From a phage, in sequence record PZ379177.1: a DNA stretch of 64,000 nucleotides. One strand, given 5' to 3'. The notes beneath the pieces are model-generated. The model was not told where the DNA came from. It made no database searches and saw only the letters and a program-made list of their open reading frames with translations. This document shows positions 13,959 to 62,759 of this stretch, piece by piece. How positions within the stretch are numbered: position 1 is the stretch's first letter; every line of letters starts with the position of its first letter. The position numbers were made by a program, and so were the translations under genes.

Positions 13959-14221
13959 GATACGGATGATACGGATAAAATGAGGCGTATTTTTATCCGT
14001 ATCGGTGTATAAGCCGCGCTATCACTGGTGTGCTACGGATGATACGGATGATACGGATACTTTTCATATATAAGAGTTTATAAAAAAAATAAAATTAAAT
14101 TAGATATATAATTTTAAATTAATTTATTTGAATTCCTATAAAGTATCGCGGCAACGCGTATCATCCGTATCATCCGTAAGATTCTTTTGAAAACAACTAC
14201 TTACTTGATACGGATGATACG
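13959..14221. repeat. complex regulatory repeat module copy 1: inverted arrays of 9-bp GATACGGAT units flanking an AT-rich core
   Basis: GATACGGATGATACGGATA at 13959 and 14041, ATCCGTATC in opposite orientation at about 13995 and 14156-14184; core 14060-14150 is >85% AT. Confidence 0.6.
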
Positions 14222-14265
14222 TCATTATACGCGTAAAATCCTGCGGCAATCCATTGCCAGGCGAT

Positions 14266-25651: not shown

Positions 25652-25849
25652 GTGAATCAAAATGAATCAGTAGCATTCTTACAATGGCTGGAAGGTGTGG
25701 TGGAGTATTACGCTCCAAAAGACCGCTTCATCTTTCAAGGAAAAAGTTACAAGCGCAAAGGGCAGGCCCAGAAAGCAGCGCGTAAGTACTGGAAGGAAGT
25801 TTATTCAGAGTTCTTTCAGCAGATGGGCAGCACAGTTGGTATCGATTGA
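25652..25849 (+). CDS. hypothetical protein
   Basis: 65-aa ORF. Confidence 0.4.
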   Translation: MNQNESVAFLQWLEGVVEYYAPKDRFIFQGKSYKRKGQAQKAARKYWKEVYSEFFQQMGSTVGID

Positions 25850-25944
25850 TGAATGTTGATTTCGTGATGTTTTTGATCATATTGGCGATAAGTTCAGTAT
25901 TTGTTGTCGCTATGATCGCGCTTATTGATTGGTTGGATAAATAA
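25849..25944 (+). CDS. small hydrophobic protein (31 aa), not in ORF track
   Basis: ATG shares its A with the upstream TGA stop; product MNVDFVMFLIILAISSVFVVAMIALIDWLDK is a single transmembrane helix. Confidence 0.3.
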   Translation: MNVDFVMFLIILAISSVFVVAMIALIDWLDK

Positions 25945-26602
25945 ATCGTGGTTTTGGTGATTTTGGTGATTTAACCGTGAATCGTGGGTCGCTGTGGCGG
26001 CCCTTTCTTTTGCCTGCCGCGCAGGAGTGTACTGCAAATTTACTGTGGGCACAAAATAGTACGGTACTGTCCAGGACTTTTTCTTTGAAAAGTTAGTGGA
26101 CCAAATGTGTCGTATTTTGATTAGTGTACTGCAAATTCCATCAAGTAGCAAAACGCACCAAAAGACCCATGCCATAAAAACCACACGAACGCAATAATCA
26201 ATCGCCGTTACAGTTTCCAGCGTTACAATTCGAAAGCGAATGATTCGATGCATAATAATATGAAGCATAATGATTCGAAAGCTAATGATTGCGTGTAGGA
26301 TAATATCGGTGGGGATTATTCTAGATGCATGTAATTTCGCATGCGTACTATTTTCGGACGAAGGGTCGGCATATTCCTCGTTTTAGTTCGGAACGAAGGG
26401 AAAGTTTTGCGCCTTTATAAAACAATGACTTACGCGACCCGCCCTAACGGTCCGATATAGGTGTCTATATAAAACAAGGACTTACGCGATGTTCTCCATT
26501 TAACGTAATACCCGTTATGCGAACTAAGGCGCATCTCGACGAAGATTATGCGACGACGAAGGGAAGGATAAAGGAGTTTTCGCGGAGAAGCGCATCGAGA
26601 TA

Positions 26603-26634
26603 GGGACGAAGAAAAGCCGCGACTAAGCGCGGCC
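26603..26634 (-). terminator. rho-independent terminator closing the leftward arm of the atypical cassette
   Basis: minus-strand hairpin GCCGCGCTTAGTCGCGGC followed by TTTTCTTCG, about 20 nt after the 26654 stop. Confidence 0.4.
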
Positions 26635-26653
26635 TATTAGTAACGGAAGGGTA

Positions 26654-26944
26654 TTATAAGGAAACGATTTTAAAGAAAGAGTAACGGCCTTCGCCTTCGG
26701 ATACCGCGAGATATTCGCCGCCGAACTCCGTAGCAAAATAAACCTTGCCTTCGATAGTAACGCGGAAGGTAGAAATATCTTCCTCTTCGAGTTCCGTAAA
26801 TTCGCTAAAATCGATAGGACTATGAAGCTCCTCGATAGTCGCATCTACGTTAAAGAGATAAACGTTTTTAAGTTTTTCGCCAAATACGTTAGAGTTTTCG
26901 GAAGTTTCGGCGCGAGCGTTACGGATAGCGGCTAAAGTAATCAT
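26654..26944 (-). CDS. hypothetical small acidic protein (cassette gene 1)
   Basis: 96 aa; AGGAGATTATTATG initiation context; CG-rich codon usage unlike flanking phage genes. Confidence 0.55.
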   Translation of the reverse strand: MITLAAIRNARAETSENSNVFGEKLKNVYLFNVDATIEELHSPIDFSEFTELEEEDISTFRVTIEGKVYFATEFGGEYLAVSEGEGRYSFFKIVSL

Positions 26945-27045
26945 AATAATCTCCTAGTTGGGTCGGGAGGGTAGCGACCTATTCGCTACCTCATCCCCTC
27001 TCGATATAAAACATTATAGTCTTAGTGTACGAAGAAGTAAAGCAC
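26945..27045 (-). promoter_or_regulatory. sigma70-type promoter plus structured 5' UTR for cassette gene 1
   Basis: minus strand TTTACT-N17-TATAAT, then hairpin GGTAGCGA-ATAGG-TCGCTACC, then AGGAG RBS. Confidence 0.5.
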
Positions 27046-27052
27046 TTTTTCA

Positions 27053-27355
27053 TTATTCTGCGATAAAATATTTATAAGCTTTATCGCCTTCTACGTCGAT
27101 ATACTCGACGATAATTAACGCTTCGCCGCGAGGCGTAACCGTCTCGATAAGGGTAACGGCTTCGTCGTCGGTCTTCGCGAAGCGGATGGCGCTACGTTCG
27201 GCATACTTCATATCGTCGAAGGAAAGGCCGATGAAGGCGACCGCGCGGACCTTAATGGCGCTAGATTCTAGTTCCGCGTTAACGGCGGCGATAAGAGAGC
27301 GAACAGTTAAGCGGTCTTCGTCGTAAGTAAGGATGGAAGAGATTAAAGTAGTCAT
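27053..27355 (-). CDS. hypothetical small acidic protein (cassette gene 2)
   Basis: ORF trimmed to MTTLISS start with GGGAGCTTTATTATG context; same atypical codon style. Confidence 0.55.
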   Translation of the reverse strand: MTTLISSILTYDEDRLTVRSLIAAVNAELESSAIKVRAVAFIGLSFDDMKYAERSAIRFAKTDDEAVTLIETVTPRGEALIIVEYIDVEGDKAYKYFIAE

Positions 27356-27396
27356 AATAAAGCTCCCGATGCTAGTAGAAGAAAGGGCCATCGCCC

Positions 27397-27579
27397 GTCT
27401 CGATATAAACAAGTATACGCGAGTGTACGAAGAAGTAAAGAAAAAAGATAAAATAATTTATCGCATTTTTATCTAAAAAGTGCTTTACTTTTTTCTACAC
27501 TATATTATAATGTACTCATATCGGGACGGGATGAGTTAACGAATAGGTCGTTAACGCCTCTCCCAACTAGGAGTTTATT
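27397..27579. promoter_or_regulatory. divergent promoter pair with central palindromic operator and structured 5' UTR
   Basis: leftward TTTACT-N16-TATACT; rightward TTTACT-N16-TATAAT; between them AGATAAAA-N13-TTTTATCT; rightward UTR hairpin GTTAACGA-ATAGG-TCGTTAAC then AGGAG RBS. Confidence 0.5.
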
Positions 27580-27894
27580 ATGGCTATCGTTACCCGCTTT
27601 ACCCTCGAAAACGCAACCGCCGAAGTCCAGGGCGTTACGCTTACTTACGGCGAAATTCTCGCTAAATTCTCCGGCGTTCGCTTAGGCGAAGAAATTAACG
27701 ACGCGACGGTAATCGAGCAACTCGCTGCTTCTCGCTTAGAGCGCGACGAAAACGGATTCTTCGAAGTCGATGCGGAATTAAATTTATGCGGTAAAACGGC
27801 GTTTATTAACGAGTTCGAACTCGCCGTTTTAGTTAATTACGATAGCAAAGCTTACGCCTTCGCCCTCGAATTAATCGAAGACGACGAAGAGTAA
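27580..27894 (+). CDS. hypothetical small acidic protein (cassette gene 3)
   Basis: 104 aa, acidic C-terminus IEDDEE; AGGAGTTTATTATG context. Confidence 0.6.
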   Translation: MAIVTRFTLENATAEVQGVTLTYGEILAKFSGVRLGEEINDATVIEQLAASRLERDENGFFEVDAELNLCGKTAFINEFELAVLVNYDSKAYAFALELIEDDEE

Positions 27895-27974
27895 GAGAGG
27901 ATTTTTAGAGCGTCGTGCGCGGCGCTTTAATAAAATTCTTTCGCGCCTAGCGCCCTAACAAATAGGAGTTTATT

Positions 27975-28601
27975 ATGGTTAGCTTAAATCGCTTTTCTAC
28001 TAGCGGCGACGTTATCGCAACTAAGACCGCCGACCTCGTTGCATTCTATAATGCAAATTCCGGCTCAAAACCGATTAAGAAGTTTGCGGACCGCCGGACC
28101 GCCGAGACTCGCGTAATCGCGTTAATCGAGTCCTTAAACGCGCTCGATGCGCCGTCCAACGAGTCGCCCATCCCCGACGCGAAGGCGCGCGAGGAAGTGT
28201 CCAGCGATGTAAAAACTCATAAGGCGCGTGCGGTCGTTAAAAAGGCTGAGCCGACCCAGGAAGAACTCGACGCGATGACCGACGAAGAATATGAAGCCTT
28301 CGTTAAGAGCGGTTTAAATGATAGTGCAAATTGCGTAGTGCAAAATGGAACTCCTTCCCATCGCCGTTCGAATAGCGAAGGTATTGCAAAAAGCTGGGAT
28401 AATAAGGAAGTGGCGCAAAAGCGTCTCACCCGTAACGGTGTCATGGTCGAGGGTGTAGGCGAGTTCAAATCGGTCCGCGTAGCGTTCGCTGCGCTGGGAT
28501 TACCGGATAGCAAGCACATTCGCTTCCGCATGAAGCTTAAGGAAGCTGGGCGCTTGAACTTCGAGTTCGGCAACAAGTCCTACACCTTCCAGATTATCTA
28601 A
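27975..28601 (+). CDS. hypothetical protein (cassette gene 4)
   Basis: 208 aa; identical AGGAGTTTATTATG context; contains two ATAGTGCAAAT-type motif copies in its coding sequence. Confidence 0.6.
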   Translation: MVSLNRFSTSGDVIATKTADLVAFYNANSGSKPIKKFADRRTAETRVIALIESLNALDAPSNESPIPDAKAREEVSSDVKTHKARAVVKKAEPTQEELDAMTDEEYEAFVKSGLNDSANCVVQNGTPSHRRSNSEGIAKSWDNKEVAQKRLTRNGVMVEGVGEFKSVRVAFAALGLPDSKHIRFRMKLKEAGRLNFEFGNKSYTFQII

Positions 28602-28607
28602 TAGAAT

Positions 28608-28631
28608 GGCGGCCCTTCGGGGTCGCTTTTC
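28608..28631 (+). terminator. rho-independent terminator closing the rightward arm of the cassette
   Basis: hairpin GGCGGCCC-TTCG-GGGTCGC followed by TTTT, 7 nt after the 28601 stop. Confidence 0.4.
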
Positions 28632-28651
28632 ATAGTGCAAATTGGTGGCTT

Positions 28652-28915
28652 ATGAATACGCTCATTCTCATCGCTACGTTATCCATCGGAAGTGGTCGCA
28701 CCTTATCCCTTTACGACCATAGTGCAAATTGCGCTTATCCTACGCGCGTTGCGGCGATAGTTAATAGTGCAAATAAGATGCTATTCGAGACTTGCTGGCG
28801 GGTCGATAACGAGAAAGGTCGGGTAGTCTTAGGTTATAGTGCAAATCTGCTGGTGGAGTCGTTCGATTGGACGGTTGAAGGTCGTAAATTGTTACGGAAA
28901 GTGACTAAAAGATGA
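28652..28915 (+). CDS. questionable ORF (87 aa) carrying three in-frame copies of the 11-mer
   Basis: weak RBS; motif copies read as HSANCA, NSANKM, YSANLL; may be a repeat region rather than a gene. Confidence 0.25.
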   Translation: MNTLILIATLSIGSGRTLSLYDHSANCAYPTRVAAIVNSANKMLFETCWRVDNEKGRVVLGYSANLLVESFDWTVEGRKLLRKVTKR

Positions 28916-28976
28916 CTTATAATAATACACTTTCTAACGCGTTTATGGTTGTAACCTTCCCCGTCGTATTACCGAT

Positions 28977-29016
28977 GGCCCTAGAAGTGGAGAAAATGTG
29001 TTCTAGGGCCGTTTTA
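28977..29016 (+). terminator. rho-independent terminator
   Basis: perfect 10-bp inverted repeat GGCCCTAGAA...TTCTAGGGCC followed by GTTTTA. Confidence 0.5.
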
Positions 29017-29029
29017 TAGTGCAAATTGG

Positions 29030-29503
29030 CTAGTGGCGGGAGAATTGCTCACCTTCTTTGGCCGCCTCTCCAAAATCCTTGTAGAAATCGTCCATGGAAC
29101 GGCCCATTTTACTATTGCCGTTTTCATCAATCATCGTGATGCCGTAGATGATATTCAGTTCACGAATAGCATTAAGTTTGGCTGACGCCGCGACTTCTGG
29201 ATCACGCACAAGCTTGACCAAATTGTGAATTGCACCTTTTACGCTCCACAAATCCTTGAGTGGCATCTCTTCCATACGCTTTTTGAAGCGCATCTTGTAG
29301 TATGGATTGCGTTGCGCGCAAAGGATTCGCTGGCCAGTGTAGTTATCCGTTGCAACTTCCATTCCAAATACTAGTGCAAAAGCTGCGCGCATGTCATGGC
29401 CCTGAATAACAAGGTCAATGAACTCATCGAATAAAGCCTGATTGTGCTCTGCAAATCGCGGGTCTTCAAAGTCTTCAGGCATCGCTACATAATCTTGACT
29501 CAT
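29030..29503 (-). CDS. hypothetical protein (speculatively terminase small subunit-like)
   Basis: 157 aa with normal phage codon style; no clear SD; both candidate ATGs lie inside copies of the 11-mer (read as TTTGCACTATG on the coding strand). Confidence 0.45.
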   Translation of the reverse strand: MSQDYVAMPEDFEDPRFAEHNQALFDEFIDLVIQGHDMRAAFALVFGMEVATDNYTGQRILCAQRNPYYKMRFKKRMEEMPLKDLWSVKGAIHNLVKLVRDPEVAASAKLNAIRELNIIYGITMIDENGNSKMGRSMDDFYKDFGEAAKEGEQFSRH

Positions 29504-29654
29504 AGTGCAAAATCCCATAGTGCAAATTAATAGTGTGAATTATACAATGGATGGACATTATATTCAAGTGCAGATTGATGTTCATTATGGCTATAAACGT
29601 ACACAAATCATAGTGCTGAATGGATAACGGACCGTGGTGCGTGGTGTACTGTTT

Positions 29655-30004
29655 GATACGGATAAAAGAAATCCATCCCTTTCGCCGCTTGTTATGCAAA
29701 TCAATGACTTAGCCGCTGCTGGCTGGTTTAAGCGTATCATGACGTATCATCCGTATTGCCGCAAGTCTTTGTTTTTACTTATATCTTACGGATAATACGT
29801 TAAATATATAAATTAACATAAGTATGAGGATGTAGAAAAAAAATTAATTTAAATTAATTCAAAATGGAGTTAATTAATTTTTGAAATAATTCTGGTTACA
29901 ATAAGGAAAAATGGCGTATCATCCGTATCATCCGTAAGATTCAGTGTACAAATCCAGGCGCGGCGCACCCTAGCGCCATGATACGGATAAAAACCTATCC
30001 GTAA
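29655..30004. repeat. complex regulatory repeat module copy 2 (GATACGGAT units flanking an AT-rich core)
   Basis: 29-bp block GCGTATCATCCGTATCATCCGTAAGATTC identical to 14156-14184; GATACGGATAAAA at 29655 and 29980; AT-rich core 29800-29900. Confidence 0.6.
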
Positions 30005-30319
30005 GAGTGTACGCTTCAATTAAAGAATCCAGGCGCGGCGCGGCTTTCACCACCACACACCACGGTTCACTCTCCAAAATCCGCACACTAAATTCCAAAA
30101 TCCAATGCTCATACTCCAAAAATAAATCCAAATTTCCATTTTATTTATTATTTTCATCCACAATATACTAAATTCTATCCGTATTAACCACGACTCAACC
30201 CACCACGATTCATGCCAATCACTTCAAAATTTCCATCGAAAACGACAAAAGGCCGCGTAAAGCGACCAATTGCACACATTCCATTATTCAAAACACGTAA
30301 ACGAGTGTTCTTTTATCCA

Positions 30320-60914: not shown

Positions 60915-62759
60915 TTATGCGCTTCTGTACCAGCCATTCAAAACAACGTATCGCGGCAAAGTCGCAACAGCCGTTGGCACCGACTGCCCTGCATTGCCAG
61001 TGTTACCGACCACATCGTGAGTGTGAGCGGGAAGGGTATAGCTGTGGCTGTGATTGCCAGCGTAATTTATATTCAACCCATGGGTGTGTGATCCAGAAGA
61101 TTGAATATTATGAACGTGGTTGCCATTAGTTGACGTATTGTATTTGTAGTTATCCCAGTCGCCGCCTTTGCGACTTCCGAAGTTGTTGTGTGTCCCATCA
61201 TAAACGCCGTACCGCGCATCGCTAGTATTGGCTTCACCCCAGCTACTGTCATGGTGGTGGTTGCCTGCCGTGTCCATTCCGTGCACGTGAGCGCCGTTTT
61301 GACTGGTATCGCCTGTGTGGTTGTGGTTGCCTGCGTCTCCAGTGGTATTGGACCATGGACCACTTTGTCGCGTGGTAATGTTCACACTGTGATTGTGGAG
61401 AGGAAGCATGGCGGCGGTAAGGGTAACAGAGTCTGCTCCGCCTGTATCAAGACCGTTTCGTGCAGCGCCGGACGTTCGAATCACCATGTTATCAGGCAGT
61501 CGTGTCCATACCTGGCCGTAAGCGCCCAGTTTAGTATTCGGGTTGGTCCCGTTGGTGAGGAATCGAGTCTCACCGACTTCGAACACATCACCCATAGTGA
61601 TCAACTTCGCAGCCAAAGCATCGAGTTGGCGCTTTGTAACAAACTGTTGCGGCTCAGTAGCATCAACGCCGATTTGCGCCGCGCCAAACGCCTGAAGGAG
61701 ACGCCAAACAGTTCCGTCATAAATGATGGTGAATGGCAGCAATCCTACGATAGCGCCAGCTGGCAACTCGCCGCCGTCGAATCCAAGAACGGCAACTTTG
61801 TTTACACCAATGGTCACGGTGACAGGTCCGGTAGTCGTTACATCATTGACGATTGTCAGGCGACTACCTGCTGACGGAGGCCATGAATACCCTGCTGGAA
61901 CGGTGAGAATTATATCTTGCGCGCCTTTACCTGATGCAAGATTCGGCGTTCCAATTTGCACATCTTGAACAGTGGCATTTTGAATCCAAGCACTCCAAGC
62001 ACCAGAAGTATAAGAGCGAGTAAACAAATAGCCATTCATTGATGTATATTGCTGCAAGGCAAAGGTTTGCGCATCGACCTGCCAAGCGCAGACCTGCAGT
62101 CGACCTGCAACCTTCGTTGCGCCAACCGCATTCGGGATGTTAGAGCACAGAGCGGCGACGGCATAGGATTGAATGACGATAGTTGTGGATGTCGTGATGT
62201 TATCGAAGTCCACAAAACTTGAAATCAATCCGCGAACAAAGTACGGGTTTTGCGCATCGCCGCCAGCAGGCATCGGAATGTATTTTCGCGCTTCGCTGGG
62301 CAGTGTTAATTCCTGCCAAGATTCCGTTTCTCCGTTAGCTGGTACGGCGCTTGTGTTGCCGTCGACCACGCTCTGAAAGATGCGCCACTCAGGTGCTGAA
62401 GGCGTTCCAGAGTTGCTGACAACGATGGCATTTTTCGGGTATCCATCAGGCTTCAAGTCAGAAGAGAAATATTGTTGAGCGCCATGATCTTGAATAAACA
62501 TAAGGTTGTCTGTGATCAAATTCAGCAACCAGTTCATCGATTCGCGCTCAACAGCTTTCGCGGCGACGTTTCCAGCCTCCAGAGCAAGCGCATAGTCAGG
62601 GGTGTAGCCGCGCTGGAAGTTTACATAACCGCTTGGGCTTGCATCCGGCACCACGGATACATCACCGCTTTGCGCGAAAGGTCTGTTAATAAGTGTTGGC
62701 ATTGCCGTTCCTCTACACGATGTATTTAATTTTTGATAAAAGGGTCGATGCCCAATCAC
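60915..62759 (-). CDS. tail fibre protein with His-rich C-terminal repeats
   Basis: 614 aa; C-terminus has repeated HxH and GNH motifs (NHNHTGD, HVHGMD, NHHHDS, HVHNIQ, HTHGLN, HSHSYT, HTHDVV). Confidence 0.55.
   Translation of the reverse strand: MIGHRPFYQKLNTSCRGTAMPTLINRPFAQSGDVSVVPDASPSGYVNFQRGYTPDYALALEAGNVAAKAVERESMNWLLNLITDNLMFIQDHGAQQYFSSDLKPDGYPKNAIVVSNSGTPSAPEWRIFQSVVDGNTSAVPANGETESWQELTLPSEARKYIPMPAGGDAQNPYFVRGLISSFVDFDNITTSTTIVIQSYAVAALCSNIPNAVGATKVAGRLQVCAWQVDAQTFALQQYTSMNGYLFTRSYTSGAWSAWIQNATVQDVQIGTPNLASGKGAQDIILTVPAGYSWPPSAGSRLTIVNDVTTTGPVTVTIGVNKVAVLGFDGGELPAGAIVGLLPFTIIYDGTVWRLLQAFGAAQIGVDATEPQQFVTKRQLDALAAKLITMGDVFEVGETRFLTNGTNPNTKLGAYGQVWTRLPDNMVIRTSGAARNGLDTGGADSVTLTAAMLPLHNHSVNITTRQSGPWSNTTGDAGNHNHTGDTSQNGAHVHGMDTAGNHHHDSSWGEANTSDARYGVYDGTHNNFGSRKGGDWDNYKYNTSTNGNHVHNIQSSGSHTHGLNINYAGNHSHSYTLPAHTHDVVGNTGNAGQSVPTAVATLPRYVVLNGWYRSA

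What the first reader, a model, noticed from the sequence alone, without database searches (positions are those of the whole stretch)
26603..28631. Self-contained bidirectional four-gene cassette with atypical composition and uniform expression signals
Four ORFs (26654..26944 and 27053..27355 leftward; 27580..27894 and 27975..28601 rightward) look unlike the surrounding phage genes. By eye they are enriched in CG-containing codons (GCG, CGC, TCG, ACG, CGA) and TTA. All four share an AGGAG-N-TTTATTATG initiation context. The unit is bounded by hairpin terminators on both sides. The products are small, mostly acidic, and carry no motif I recognise. This pattern fits a horizontally acquired or otherwise distinct accessory module, for example anti-defence or host takeover, but its function is unknown.
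Basis: partly seen in the sequence, partly recalled or inferred. Interest (0 to 1): 0.85.

Follow-up and report, generated by a model that had tools for sequence, protein, structure and literature searches.

The report
Terminal-repeat early-gene island purged of TG/CA
The four-gene cassette is a host-transcribed early module in the terminal repeat of an E. coli Wifcevirus phage, whose DNA is almost free of the dinucleotides TG and CA; this purge is conserved in three phage genera and matches which restriction systems can stop these phages.

Summary
The window is a Wifcevirus (97% identical to Bas98/WFC). The cassette lies inside the ~3.8-kb direct terminal repeat (window ~26080-29865), starting ~0.2 kb from a physical genome end.

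The four ORFs, both flanking terminators, three near-identical sigma70-type promoters and a GGAG-N0-2-TTATTATG start context unique to these genes are confirmed.

The odd composition is neither GC nor codon bias. It is a strand-symmetric ~5-fold purge of TG/CA (o/e 0.27 versus 1.17), with CG and TA doubled, over ~26300-28200. Genes g1-g3 sit close to the theoretical TG/CA minimum for their proteins (6/9/8 observed, 2/2/4 possible, 30-38 expected). GATC is also missing.

Myosmarvirus (Serratia/Erwinia) and Kylevirus (Pantoea) have equivalent islands at the same terminal position with largely different genes. PB1, T7 and the T5 first-step-transfer region do not.

Gene 4 belongs to the PB1-like lineage, so horizontal acquisition is not supported.

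Published phenotypes fit a T5-like rule. Sites of five restriction systems these phages resist are absent from the repeat (0-1 in relatives); EcoP1 sites are present, and only EcoP1 restricts.

Protein functions and the agent selecting against TG/CA remain unknown.

The parts
26080..29865 (.). Direct terminal repeat (DTR), collapsed to one copy in this window. The boundaries are approximate.
   Evidence: The WFC record carries the repeat twice (3784 bp, 100% identical) and its ends map to window ~29865 and ~26080. The Mansfield PhageTerm DTR of 3673 bp maps to ~26161-29833.
26130..26300 (+). C/A-rich leader between the repeat boundary and the island, carrying TAATGATT-type repeats.
   Evidence: Sequence read. 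TG/CA density is normal to high here (19 per 100 bp). Equivalent leaders occur in MyoSmar and Kyle.
26300..28200 (.). TG/CA-purged island (CA:TG base-pair steps ~5-fold depleted, CG and TA doubled, no GATC).
26410..26490 (-). Two degenerate copies of the leftward promoter / initial-transcript module, probably remnants of lost gene units.
   Evidence: Sequence similarity read. ECML-117 and SP13 carry an extra leftward gene at this position.
26614..26635 (-). Intrinsic terminator that ends leftward transcription.
   Evidence: Annotated in WFC and Mansfield.
26654..26944 (-). g1: 96 aa, pI 4.4, a fast-diverging orphan protein.
   Evidence: It has 6 TG/CA, against a minimum of 2 and 30 expected.
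26967..26993 (-). 5'UTR hairpin of g1 (stem GGUAGCGA/UCGCUACC, loop AUAGG).
27013..27041 (-). Promoter for g1: TTTACT-N17-TATAAT, within GCTTTACTTCTTCGTACAC.
27053..27355 (-). g2: 100 aa, pI 4.55, orphan protein.
27412..27439 (-). Promoter for g2: TTTACT-N16-TATACT.
27484..27511 (+). Rightward promoter for g3-g4: GCTTTACTT...TATAAT.
   Evidence: The same promoter type occurs in MyoSmar/Spe5P4 and Kyle.
27533..27557 (+). 5'UTR hairpin of the rightward transcript (stem GUUAACGA/UCGUUAAC, loop AUAGG).
27580..27894 (+). g3: 104 aa, pI 4.07, a distant paralogue of g1 and an accessory gene.
27908..27925 (+). Weak hairpin followed by TTTAATAAAATT between g3 and g4 (possible attenuator).
   Evidence: Read from the sequence. 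Not reported by the terminator scan.
27975..28601 (+). g4: 208 aa, pI 9.1, found across PB1-like phages (phrog_4730, function unknown). The 5' third of the gene is purged of TG/CA; the rest is not.
28608..28626 (+). Intrinsic terminator that ends rightward transcription.
   Evidence: Annotated in WFC at -16.8 kcal. Sequence.
28048..29527 (+). Array of nine ATAGTGCAAAT repeats, all on one strand, in the inner part of the repeat around the small-terminase-like gene.
   Evidence: 9 matches against 1.7 expected, and 0 of 100 shuffles reach 9.

Best explanation
The cassette is the immediate-early ('pre-early') module of a Wifcevirus, comparable to the first-step-transfer region of T5 and the host-takeover module of SPO1.

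Shown:
- It lies in the ~3.8-kb direct terminal repeat and begins ~0.2 kb from one physical genome end.
- It is built from self-contained units of strong sigma70-type promoter (GCTTTACTT-N15/16-TATAAT), UTR, uniform Shine-Dalgarno/start signal, small gene and terminator. Two of its three UTRs carry a conserved hairpin.
- Its DNA has been recoded almost to the theoretical minimum of CA:TG base-pair steps. It also lacks GATC.
- The purge acts on DNA. It is symmetric on both strands, includes intergenic DNA, operates across codon junctions and has removed His, Gln, Cys, Trp and internal Met from the proteins.
- Polymorphism among 11 Wifcevirus genomes gives modest evidence that selection against TG/CA is still acting. 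The purge is kept in three genera whose islands no longer align.

Inferred:
- This segment is the first DNA exposed in the cell and is transcribed at once by host RNA polymerase.
- Its small acidic, fast-evolving products (g1-g3) and the conserved basic g4 establish takeover, including the genome-wide insensitivity to restriction reported for these phages.
- The rest of the genome is protected by those functions or by delayed entry. The leading segment can survive only by not being recognisable, so it is under unusually strong selection on its DNA sequence.

The purge removes every TG/CA-containing recognition site from the repeat: EcoKI, EcoAI-type, and CACAG of EcoCFT_II. AGACC of EcoP1 contains no TG or CA and remains. 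EcoP1 is the one system that restricts these phages.

The agent that makes each individual CA:TG step costly is not identified.
For: Identity and position:
- The window is 97% identical to Bas98/WFC.
- MyoSmar has a 3,559-bp DTR with the record opened at its left boundary (PMC6753285). Its island starts ~230 bp in.

Expression signals.

Hairpin: three different stems with full complementarity and an invariant CGA-AUAGG-UCG top.

Purge:
- Dinucleotide and k-mer statistics.
- Codon junctions: NNY before A is T 52: C 8; before G it is C 102: T 11; Fisher p = 1e-24. Control genes show the opposite trend.
- Observed / minimum possible / expected TG/CA: 6/2/30, 9/2/37 and 8/4/38 for g1, g2 and g3.

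Selection:
- The TG/CA-richer allele is the minority in 28 of 37 island SNPs (binomial p = 0.0026), against 58 of 105 in the flanks (Fisher p = 0.03).
- Transversions that change the TG/CA count are 4 of 44, against 31% expected (p = 0.0009).

Conservation: Myosmarvirus and Kylevirus, which has the same two-leftward, two-rightward cassette. Islands are not alignable between genera.

Controls without an island: PB1, T7 and T5 FST.

Restriction concordance:
- PMC11990801 reports resistance to EcoKI, EcoCFT_I, EcoRI, EcoRV and EcoCFT_II, and strong sensitivity to EcoP1_I. The authors call the type III contrast unexplained.
- I identified the EcoCFT_II site as CACAG by matching the published site counts: 93 in Bas98 and 81 in T7.
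- In the window's DTR there are 0 CACAG (5.3 expected, Poisson p = 0.005) and 0 EcoRI, EcoRV, EcoKI and EcoAI-type sites. There are 5 AGACC sites in both orientations.
- WFC and Bas101 give the same counts. Bas99 has six AGACC sites and one GAATTC at ~29853, near the inner boundary. Bas98 has one CACAG inside the repeat, at record position 62069 in g1.

Precedents:
- In T5, EcoRI and CRISPR act only on the first-step-transfer region (bioRxiv 10.1101/866236).
- In Murciavirus, the leading region determines type I sensitivity (PMC12455610).
Against: - No transcriptome, entry-polarity or two-step-transfer data exist for these phages. Which end enters first is inferred.
- No protein has a recognisable fold or family. 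Pfam, PHROGs, PADLOC and PDB sequence searches were negative. AlphaFold models were poor (pLDDT 55).
- Generic restriction-site avoidance does not justify purging every TG/CA. By my own estimate (not a tool result), for random 7-base type I specificities it lowers the chance of at least one site in 2 kb only from ~0.22 to ~0.19.
- The island is enriched in short palindromes: TCGA ~3x, CTAG 11x, and six EcoRI sites in the Serratia island. That is the opposite of type II avoidance.
- About 55 TG/CA remain in the island, so it is not simply free of a cutter's site.
- Transitions that create TG/CA are not under-represented among SNPs (33 of 72 against 47% expected). Selection per site is therefore weak.
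- The restriction concordance rests on six systems and on one decisive contrast.
- One of the four tested isolates, Bas98, keeps a single CACAG in the repeat. This fits the rule only through the type III requirement for two head-to-head sites.
Confidence: 0.55

Rival explanations
1. Self-immunity. An early phage function destroys host DNA at a short, TG/CA-containing target. The leading segment, the only phage DNA present at that time, is purged so that it survives. This is the idea Davison proposed for T5 A1 and FST DNA.
For: - It explains why very many short sites, rather than a few long ones, are purged, and why only the first ~2 kb is affected.
- TCA/TGA and CAG/CTG are the most depleted trinucleotides, at 0.13 and 0.07.
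- The T5 precedent is stated in bioRxiv 10.1101/866236.
- From my own knowledge: T4 endonuclease IV prefers 5'-TCA in ssDNA.
Against: - No nuclease domain is detectable in g1-g4.
- About 55 TG/CA remain in the island.
- Host DNA degradation by Wifcevirus has not been reported in the papers read.
- The rest of the phage genome has normal TG/CA and would need separate protection.
Confidence: 0.15
2. Signal hygiene. Removing TG/CA abolishes every NTG start codon, the TTG of sigma70 -35 elements, extended -10 TG motifs and many transcription-factor sites on both strands. RNA polymerase and ribosomes would then be funnelled to the three real promoters and four real starts, giving the fastest possible expression.
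For: - TTGA/TCAA is the single most depleted abundant tetramer: 1 observed against 32 expected.
- The real promoters use TTTACT rather than TTGACA.
- ATG is the least depleted TG trinucleotide, and the four start codons account for part of the residue.
- A previous study cited in PMC11990801 reports a very short latent period for these phages.
Against: - Promoter-like hits are not rarer in the island than in its surroundings.
- CA and TG are equally depleted on the sense strand, even in the Serratia island where all genes point the same way.
- The purge fades in mid-gene in g4 rather than at a transcript boundary.
- Rare codons such as TTA and CGA are tolerated, which argues against optimisation for speed.
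Confidence: 0.12
3. Modification-free zone. Virion DNA carries an undescribed modification targeted to a TG/CA context. The early genes avoid that context so that unmodified-template-dependent host RNA polymerase can transcribe the incoming DNA.
For: [quoted passage not shown]
- The genome encodes thymidylate synthase, a polynucleotide-kinase-like protein, MazG and a FabG-like reductase in one cluster.
Against: - PB1 has the same enzyme set but no island.
- A TG/CA-context modification would not protect GAATTC or GATATC.
- EcoP1 cuts the phage, so the DNA is not generally protected.
- No modification data exist.
Confidence: 0.07
4. One reading: a horizontally acquired block that keeps the composition of a foreign donor.
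For: g1-g3 have no homologues outside these phages. Only 5 hits were found among 1.84 billion representative proteins.
Against: - GC is identical to the genome.
- g4 belongs to the PB1-like lineage.
- The paralogue inside the island is purged and the one outside is not.
- Three genera with non-alignable islands share the purge at the same terminal position.
- To my knowledge, no organism has TG/CA o/e ~0.2 together with CpG ~2.
- Intergenic DNA and both strands are equally affected.
Confidence: 0.04
5. A region-specific mutational bias or biased repair (for example in terminal-repeat heteroduplexes) drives TG/CA to CG/TA without any selection.
For: The signature is a single-parameter shift reachable entirely by transitions. 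The region is duplicated at both genome ends.
Against: - Only about half of the repeat is affected.
- GC content is unchanged although both T>C and G>A changes are needed.
- Young (minority) alleles mostly create TG/CA (28 of 37). Mutation therefore pushes towards TG/CA and something removes it.
- Amino-acid content has been reshaped.
Confidence: 0.05

Closest known systems
Phage T5 first-step-transfer (pre-early) region in the long terminal repeat
   Same: - It lies in a long direct terminal repeat next to the genome end.
- Leftward and rightward pre-early operons run from strong host-type promoters and are closed by terminators.
- A repeat-rich tract follows in the inner part of the repeat (T5 annotation; window).
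- The phage is insensitive to restriction except where sites lie in that region.
   Different: - The region is 3.8 kb rather than 10.2 kb, and holds four small genes rather than ~17.
- No homologues of A1, A2 or dmp were found in g1-g4; Pfam and PHROGs gave no such matches.
- Two-step transfer has not been demonstrated.
- T5 FST DNA has normal TG/CA (0.7-1.2) and only a CpG excess. The dinucleotide purge is therefore not a T5 feature.
Bacillus phage SPO1 host-takeover module in the terminal redundancy (Stewart et al. 1998; recalled from my own knowledge, not checked here)
   Same: Many small orphan genes in the terminal redundancy, each with unusually strong early promoters and ribosome-binding sites, dedicated to host shut-off.
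   Different: Different host and lineage, with no sequence relationship. To my knowledge no dinucleotide purge has been reported for it. SPO1 was not examined with the tools here.
T7 leading-end class I region (promoters A1-A3, then ocr) and 'leading region' anti-defence logic
   Same: - Strong host promoters sit within ~1.5 kb of the entering end.
- The first product is a small, very acidic protein that disables restriction (T7 annotation).
- The early-injected region decides type I sensitivity in Murciavirus (PMC12455610).
   Different: - No similarity of g1-g3 to Ocr was detected.
- The T7 leading region has normal TG/CA.
- Here, type II and one type III system are also evaded.
Restriction-site (palindrome) avoidance in phage genomes (e.g. 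Rusinov et al. 2018, cited within PMC8594841)
   Same: Selection at the DNA level removes recognisable motifs. GATC and all tested TG/CA-containing sites are absent from the repeat.
   Different: - Known avoidance concerns specific 4-8-bp sites genome-wide.
- Here a whole dinucleotide step is purged in a 2-kb segment.
- Many short palindromes (TCGA, CTAG, CGCG) are instead enriched.
Lambda nutL/nutR boxB hairpins
   Same: A small hairpin with an invariant loop and variable stem sits near the 5' end of both divergent early transcripts.
   Different: - No Rfam match.
- No boxA and no N-like arginine-rich protein was identified.
- g2 lacks the hairpin.
- No functional evidence for antitermination.

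Membership tests
T5-type pre-early / first-step-transfer region | Located within a long direct terminal repeat, adjacent to a physical genome end. | tested here: met
   The DTR maps to window ~26080-29865 and the island starts ~0.2 kb inside it. The same holds in MyoSmar.
T5-type pre-early / first-step-transfer region | Strong host sigma70 promoters driving divergent operons closed by terminators. | tested here: met
   Three TTTACT-N16/17-TATAAT/TATACT sites and flanking terminators were found. These are consensus matches only, with no transcript data.
T5-type pre-early / first-step-transfer region | Two-step DNA transfer with an injection stop signal. | not testable with these tools
   Only a repeat array (ATAGTGCAAAT x9) and ATCCGTA repeats in the inner part of the repeat are suggestive.
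T5-type pre-early / first-step-transfer region | Homologues of A1, A2, dmp or other T5 pre-early proteins. | tested here: not met
   Pfam, PHROGs and PADLOC returned no such hits for g1-g4.
T5-type pre-early / first-step-transfer region | Restriction acts only through sites in the first-entering region. | tested here: met
   - Site maps against published efficiencies of plating: in the window's repeat, 0 sites for EcoKI, EcoCFT_I, EcoRI, EcoRV and EcoCFT_II (CACAG), all of which the phages resist.
- There are 5 EcoP1 sites in both orientations, and the phages are sensitive to EcoP1.
- WFC and Bas101 match. Bas98 has one CACAG in the repeat, and Bas99 has one GAATTC at ~29853, at the inner boundary.
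- This is correlative.
SPO1-type host-takeover module | Array of small genes in the terminal redundancy, each with its own strong early promoter and strong ribosome-binding site. | tested here: met
   g1, g2 and g3-g4 have their own promoters, and all four genes share the GGAG...TTATTATG start context.
SPO1-type host-takeover module | Products shut off host macromolecular synthesis. | not testable with these tools
   No functional data. All family searches were negative.
Ocr/ArdA-type DNA-mimic anti-restriction proteins | Small, strongly acidic protein made first from the leading end. | tested here: met
   g1-g3 have pI 4.1-4.6 and net charge -7 to -15. Part of this acidity may be a by-product of the purge, for example Gln replaced by Glu.
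Ocr/ArdA-type DNA-mimic anti-restriction proteins | Sequence or fold similarity to Ocr, ArdA or another known mimic. | tested here: inconclusive
   No Pfam hit for g1-g4. The PDB sequence search covered only the g4 profile and found nothing. AlphaFold models of g1 and g2 reached only pLDDT 55, so no fold search was justified.
Horizontally acquired island / moron | Composition of a foreign donor, and absence from relatives. | tested here: not met
   GC equals that of the genome. The module is present in all 29 Wifcevirus records and in two further genera. g4 belongs to the PB1-like lineage.
Lambda-type nut (boxB) antitermination site | Conserved small hairpin in both divergent early leaders, plus boxA and a cognate N-like protein. 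| tested here: inconclusive
   The hairpin with covarying stems is present in two of three leaders. There is no Rfam match. No boxA or N-like protein was identified.

The most novel reading that the evidence does not exclude
The near-complete purge of CA:TG base-pair steps (together with GATC) from the first ~2 kb of the terminal repeat is the footprint of an undescribed, sequence-dependent process acting on the leading end of incoming phage DNA in Enterobacterales. That process could be a host activity or the phage's own early nuclease. Three genera have kept the purge while their genes turned over, and it decides which restriction systems can stop these phages. If so, 'dinucleotide-stealth' leading segments are a new anti-defence strategy, and the purge is a handle for finding the agent.
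Probability: 0.35. Interest if true: 0.85.

Novelty: new variant of a known kind. Interest (0 to 1): 0.72.

Why it matters
1. It offers a concrete, testable explanation for a puzzle the BASEL authors left open: why Wifcevirus phages shrug off five restriction systems, including one type III system, yet are killed by EcoP1, which has a similar number of sites. It points to the terminal-repeat cassette as the place to look for the unknown protective function.

2. A whole dinucleotide step has been purged to near the coding minimum, the proteins' amino-acid content has been reshaped, and the state is conserved in three genera. Two targeted searches of the held paper library found no description of it. 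It implies a strong DNA-level constraint on the first DNA that enters the cell, and the agent behind it is unknown.

3. It gives a simple compositional marker (CA:TG o/e below 0.3 next to a repeat boundary) for finding leading ends and immediate-early anti-defence genes in other fixed-end phages.

4. Wifcevirus phages are being considered for biocontrol of E. coli O157. Knowing their vulnerable region is of practical use.

Tried and rejected
Searches that found nothing:
- Pfam, PHROGs and PADLOC on g1-g4, ORF5, the Serratia island proteins and the variant alleles. The only hits were phrog_4730 (function unknown) for g4 and a 'transcriptional regulator' PHROG for the extra 69-aa ECML-117 gene, which is not in this window.
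- A PDB profile search with a five-member g4 alignment returned only noise.
- Rfam on 25800-30200 returned nothing.

Structure prediction:
- AlphaFold on g2 alone and on the g1 family alignment both gave pLDDT 55. No fold search was run because the matches would be meaningless.
- Two homologue searches for g4 returned almost only near-identical Wifcevirus copies, so no deep alignment could be built.
- A profile of the g1/g3 family against 1.84 billion representatives found 5 proteins.

Explanations considered and set aside:
- GC or codon-usage explanations: GC is flat, and the effect crosses codon junctions.
- HGT: see the rival explanations.
- Generic restriction-site avoidance as the driver: my own estimate of its benefit is small, and palindromes are enriched.
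- An RNA-level cause such as MazF (ACA) or start-codon avoidance: both TG and CA are depleted on the sense strand even where all genes share one orientation.
- RIP-like or deamination-like mutation: GC is unchanged and CG rises as well.
- 'ATGC is tolerated' as a clue: true in Wifcevirus (1.05) but not in the Serratia island (0.47), so probably idiosyncratic.

Controls: PB1, T7, T5 FST, Salmonella PCSE1, Aeromonas Gekk3-15 and ~70 IMG/VR loci carrying g4 homologues have no island.

Full report
**What the window is**

The region 26400-28900 is 97% identical to Escherichia phages HermannAdler_Bas98 and vB_EcoM_WFC. It matches 29 records in the phage collection, all but one of them at 90-99% identity and all Escherichia or Shigella phages of the genus Wifcevirus or closely matching it. 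Wifcevirus phages are ~68-kb myoviruses distantly related to Pseudomonas PB1-like phages (PMC11990801).

In records that keep the physical ends, the cassette lies inside the direct terminal repeat (DTR):
- WFC carries a 3784-bp repeat at both ends, 100% identical. Its ends map to window ~29865 and ~26080.
- The Mansfield PhageTerm repeat of 3673 bp maps to ~26161-29833.

The window is therefore an assembly in which the repeat is collapsed. The cassette starts about 0.2 kb from one physical genome end.

**Checking the observation**

- All four ORFs exist at the stated coordinates and are annotated as hypothetical proteins in several records.
- GGAG-N0-2-TTATTATG occurs exactly four times in 64 kb, once at each of the four starts.
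- A leftward terminator lies at 26635-26614. A rightward terminator lies at 28608-28626 (WFC annotation).
- Three near-identical promoter-like sites, TTTACT-N16/17-TATAAT or TATACT embedded in GCTTTACTT..GTACAC, lie at 27484-27511 (+), 27041-27013 (-) and 27439-27412 (-). g1, g2 and g3-g4 therefore each have their own promoter.
- g1-g3 are acidic (pI 4.1-4.6) and g4 is basic (pI 9.1).

**What the 'atypical composition' really is**

GC content is flat. The anomaly is a purge of the dinucleotides TG and CA.
- In 500-bp bins from 26501 to 28000, TG o/e is 0.17-0.29 and CA o/e is 0.22-0.37, against ~1.2 elsewhere. CpG is 2.0-2.2 and TpA ~1.25, against 0.66 elsewhere.
- When both strands are pooled, only CA/TG (0.27 against 1.17), CG (2.10 against 1.10) and TA (1.24 against 0.66) differ from the rest of the window. 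The other dinucleotides do not change. With base composition fixed, this is a single degree of freedom.
- TG/CA density is ~3 per 100 bp over 26500-28200, against a window mean of 14.2. Five of the six longest TG/CA-free stretches in the window lie here.
- The lowest 600-bp window (0.19) is 9.3 SD below the distribution outside the island.
- Every TG-containing trinucleotide is depleted: CAG/CTG 0.07, TGA/TCA 0.13, and ATG least at 0.50.
- GATC is absent (3.5 expected) and CTAG is enriched 11-fold.

**The purge acts on DNA, not on codons or RNA**

- It is equal for TG and CA in leftward and rightward genes, and it includes intergenic DNA.
- It works across codon junctions. In island genes, a third-position pyrimidine before an A is T 52: C 8. 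Before a G it is C 102: T 11 (Fisher p = 1e-24). Control genes show the opposite mild trend.
- A dynamic-programming calculation gives the minimum TG/CA count compatible with each protein. g1, g2 and g3 have 6, 9 and 8, against minima of 2, 2 and 4. With the phage's ordinary codon usage, 30-38 are expected.
- The proteins themselves have been reshaped. His, Gln, Cys, Trp and internal Met, the residues whose codons must contain CA or TG, are almost absent. Glu reaches 13.7%.
- The purge fades in the middle of g4. The first 75 codons have 12 against 27 expected, and the rest have 40 against 51. It therefore follows position along the DNA, not gene or transcript boundaries.

**The purge is a property of the place, not of gene ancestry**

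- g4 matches phrog_4730. It has homologues in Pbunavirus, Xanthomonas, Serratia, Pantoea and many uncultivated phages.
- I scanned 78 IMG/VR loci that carry a g4 homologue. Strong islands (o/e 0.15-0.28, 2-2.3 kb) occur only in Wifcevirus and in Myosmarvirus-type Serratia phages.
- In Serratia phage Spe5P4/MyoSmar, the island holds four rightward genes. The first is a paralogue of g4 with 15 TG/CA against 62 expected. The second g4 paralogue, 3.4 kb away and outside the island, has 138 against 129 expected.
- MyoSmar has a PhageTerm repeat of 3,559 bp, and its record was opened at the repeat's left boundary (PMC6753285). Its island begins ~230 bp from that boundary, after a C/A-rich leader and a GCTTTACTT...TATAAT promoter.
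- Pantoea phage Kyle (Kylevirus) has the same layout as the window: two leftward genes, two rightward genes (the second a g4 homologue), then small ORFs and a leftward terminase-small-subunit-like gene. It also has an island (o/e 0.22, CpG 2.1), the same promoter type and the same GATTAGTGTACTG motif upstream.
- The three islands are not alignable by blastn except for promoter-sized pieces. The shared composition therefore cannot be simple inheritance of sequence.
- GATC is 0, 0 and 1 in the three islands, against 3.5, 1.7 and 6.1 expected.
- PB1 (whole genome), T7, the T5 first-step-transfer region, Salmonella PCSE1 and Aeromonas Gekk3-15 have no island.

**Evidence for ongoing selection**

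In an alignment of 11 Wifcevirus genomes:
- The island has a lower transition/transversion ratio (72/44) than its flanks (48/19 and 101/32).
- The TG/CA-richer allele is the minority allele in 28 of 37 island SNPs (binomial p = 0.0026), against 58 of 105 in the flanks (Fisher p = 0.03).
- Transversions that change the TG/CA count are 4 of 44, against 31% expected (p = 0.0009).
- Transitions that change the count are not under-represented (33 of 72 against 47% expected).

This pattern fits many weakly selected sites. Mutation keeps creating TG/CA, because 40% of possible transitions in this CG/TA-rich sequence would do so, and those alleles stay rare. It argues against a purely mutational origin.

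**Other parts of the module**

- The leaders of g1 and of the rightward transcript carry a hairpin with an invariant top (CGA-AUAGG-UCG). The lower stems are completely different but fully complementary: GGUAG/CUACC and GUUAA/UUAAC.
- The Serratia phages have a third version (GUCGGG/CCCGGC) in front of their second island gene. Where g3 is missing (ECML-117, RCIP0319), the hairpin sits directly in front of g4.
- Rfam has no match for the hairpin. It is a structured element under selection, and its role is open: message stability, translational control or antitermination.
- Gene content turns over. g3 is present in only 11 records. In Mansfield and related phages a paralogue of g1 takes its place (blastp 1.6e-8). 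g1 alleles are 61-98% identical. ECML-117, SP13 and ECO71P1 carry extra small genes.
- The window keeps two decayed promoter copies at 26410-26490.

**Link to published phenotypes**

[quoted passage not shown] They are very sensitive to EcoP1_I, although EcoP1_I and EcoCFT_II have similar numbers of sites.

I reproduced their site counts for Bas98: AGACC 82, EcoRI 36, EcoRV 6, EcoKI 5 and GAG-N7-GTCA 4. I then identified the EcoCFT_II site as CACAG. It is the only 5-mer giving both 93 sites in Bas98 and 81 in T7.

Within the repeat of the window:
- There are no CACAG sites (5.3 expected, Poisson p = 0.005).
- There are no EcoRI, EcoRV, EcoKI or EcoAI-type sites.
- There are five AGACC/GGTCT sites in both orientations, which is what type III cleavage requires.

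WFC and Bas101 give the same counts. Bas99 has six AGACC sites and one GAATTC at ~29853, near the inner boundary. Bas98 has a single CACAG in the repeat, which should not be cleavable on its own.

This is the T5 pattern. T5 ignores EcoRI sites and CRISPR targets outside its first-step-transfer DNA but is hit through sites inside it (bioRxiv 10.1101/866236). A similar rule was shown for type I restriction of Murciavirus (PMC12455610). The concordance is correlative and rests mainly on the CACAG/AGACC contrast. It does explain an observation that the BASEL authors flagged as unexplained.

**Interpretation**

The best-supported reading is a T5/SPO1-like immediate-early module in the terminal repeat. 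Host RNA polymerase would express it from the first DNA to enter. Its products would establish takeover, including restriction insensitivity. Its own DNA must survive unprotected and is therefore under exceptional sequence-level selection.

What is shown: position, signals, the DNA-level purge, its conservation, modest polymorphism evidence of continuing selection, and the site maps.

What is inferred: entry polarity, timing, and the role of the proteins.

What is not explained: why every CA:TG step is costly.
- Generic restriction avoidance is quantitatively too weak, and short palindromes are enriched.
- Self-immunity to a phage nuclease, signal hygiene and a modification-free zone remain open rivals.

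**What failed**

All family and structure approaches to g1-g4 failed. No claim about their molecular activity is made beyond their size, charge, rapid turnover and position.

Noticed in passing
window 28048-29527 (+ strand): There are nine copies of ATAGTGCAAAT (seven exact, two with one mismatch), all on the same strand, in the inner half of the terminal repeat. Two lie inside g4, and others lie around and inside the leftward small-terminase-like gene (29030-29518). No shuffle out of 100 reaches nine. They could be terminase recognition sites or an injection-stop-like array.
   Followed up: partly
window 26026, 26123, 27024, 27422, 29943, 30006 (all + strand): Six of the eight AGTGTAC heptamers in the window cluster on one strand at both repeat boundaries and in the spacers of the two leftward promoters. 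GATTAGTGTACTG recurs just outside the island in Pantoea phage Kyle, and AGTGTACG recurs next to the MyoSmar repeat boundary. This may be a boundary or regulator site.
   Followed up: partly
window 26130-26300; L037 1-230; L098 4400-4640: A C/A-rich, G-poor leader of ~200-250 bp with TAATGATT/AATCATT repeats lies between the repeat boundary and the TG/CA-free island in Wifcevirus and Kyle. MyoSmar has a C/A-rich leader at the same position, where I did not look for these repeats. It contrasts sharply with the purge that follows.
   Followed up: no
window 13960-14232 and 29660-30000: There are two clusters of ATCCGTA-type repeats (T(T/C)ATCCGTAAG, loosely DnaA-box-like). One sits at the inner repeat boundary. 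The other is 16 kb away in a CpG-high, AT-rich stretch. The first 200 bp of the WFC genome also match the 14.1-14.2 kb cluster.
   Followed up: partly
L093 (phage T5, 1-20000): The T5 first-step-transfer repeat has CpG o/e mostly 1.1-1.5, against 0.5-0.9 in the following 10 kb, with normal TG/CA. This is a milder and different compositional boundary at the same kind of location.
   Followed up: no
L013 24-527 and L010 4605-5639 (Serratia phage Spe5P4): Myosmarvirus carries two paralogues of g4. A short one (167 aa) is the first island gene. A long one (344 aa) has an extra N-terminal domain and lies outside the island.
   Followed up: partly
window 29030-29518 (-): The gene annotated in Mansfield as the terminase small subunit (by HHpred) lies inside the terminal repeat. 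It is therefore present twice per packaged genome.
   Followed up: no
L006 1761-1970 (ECML-117; not in this window): An extra 69-aa leftward gene in ECML-117 and SP13 matches phrog_10377 ('transcriptional regulator', E = 1.6e-37). It is rich in Met and less purged of TG/CA than its neighbours.
   Followed up: partly
P0149 (103 aa; source not traced): This is a distant g1 homologue from an unidentified contig. It also lacks His, Gln, Cys, Trp and internal Met, which suggests a further TG/CA-free island in another phage.
   Followed up: no
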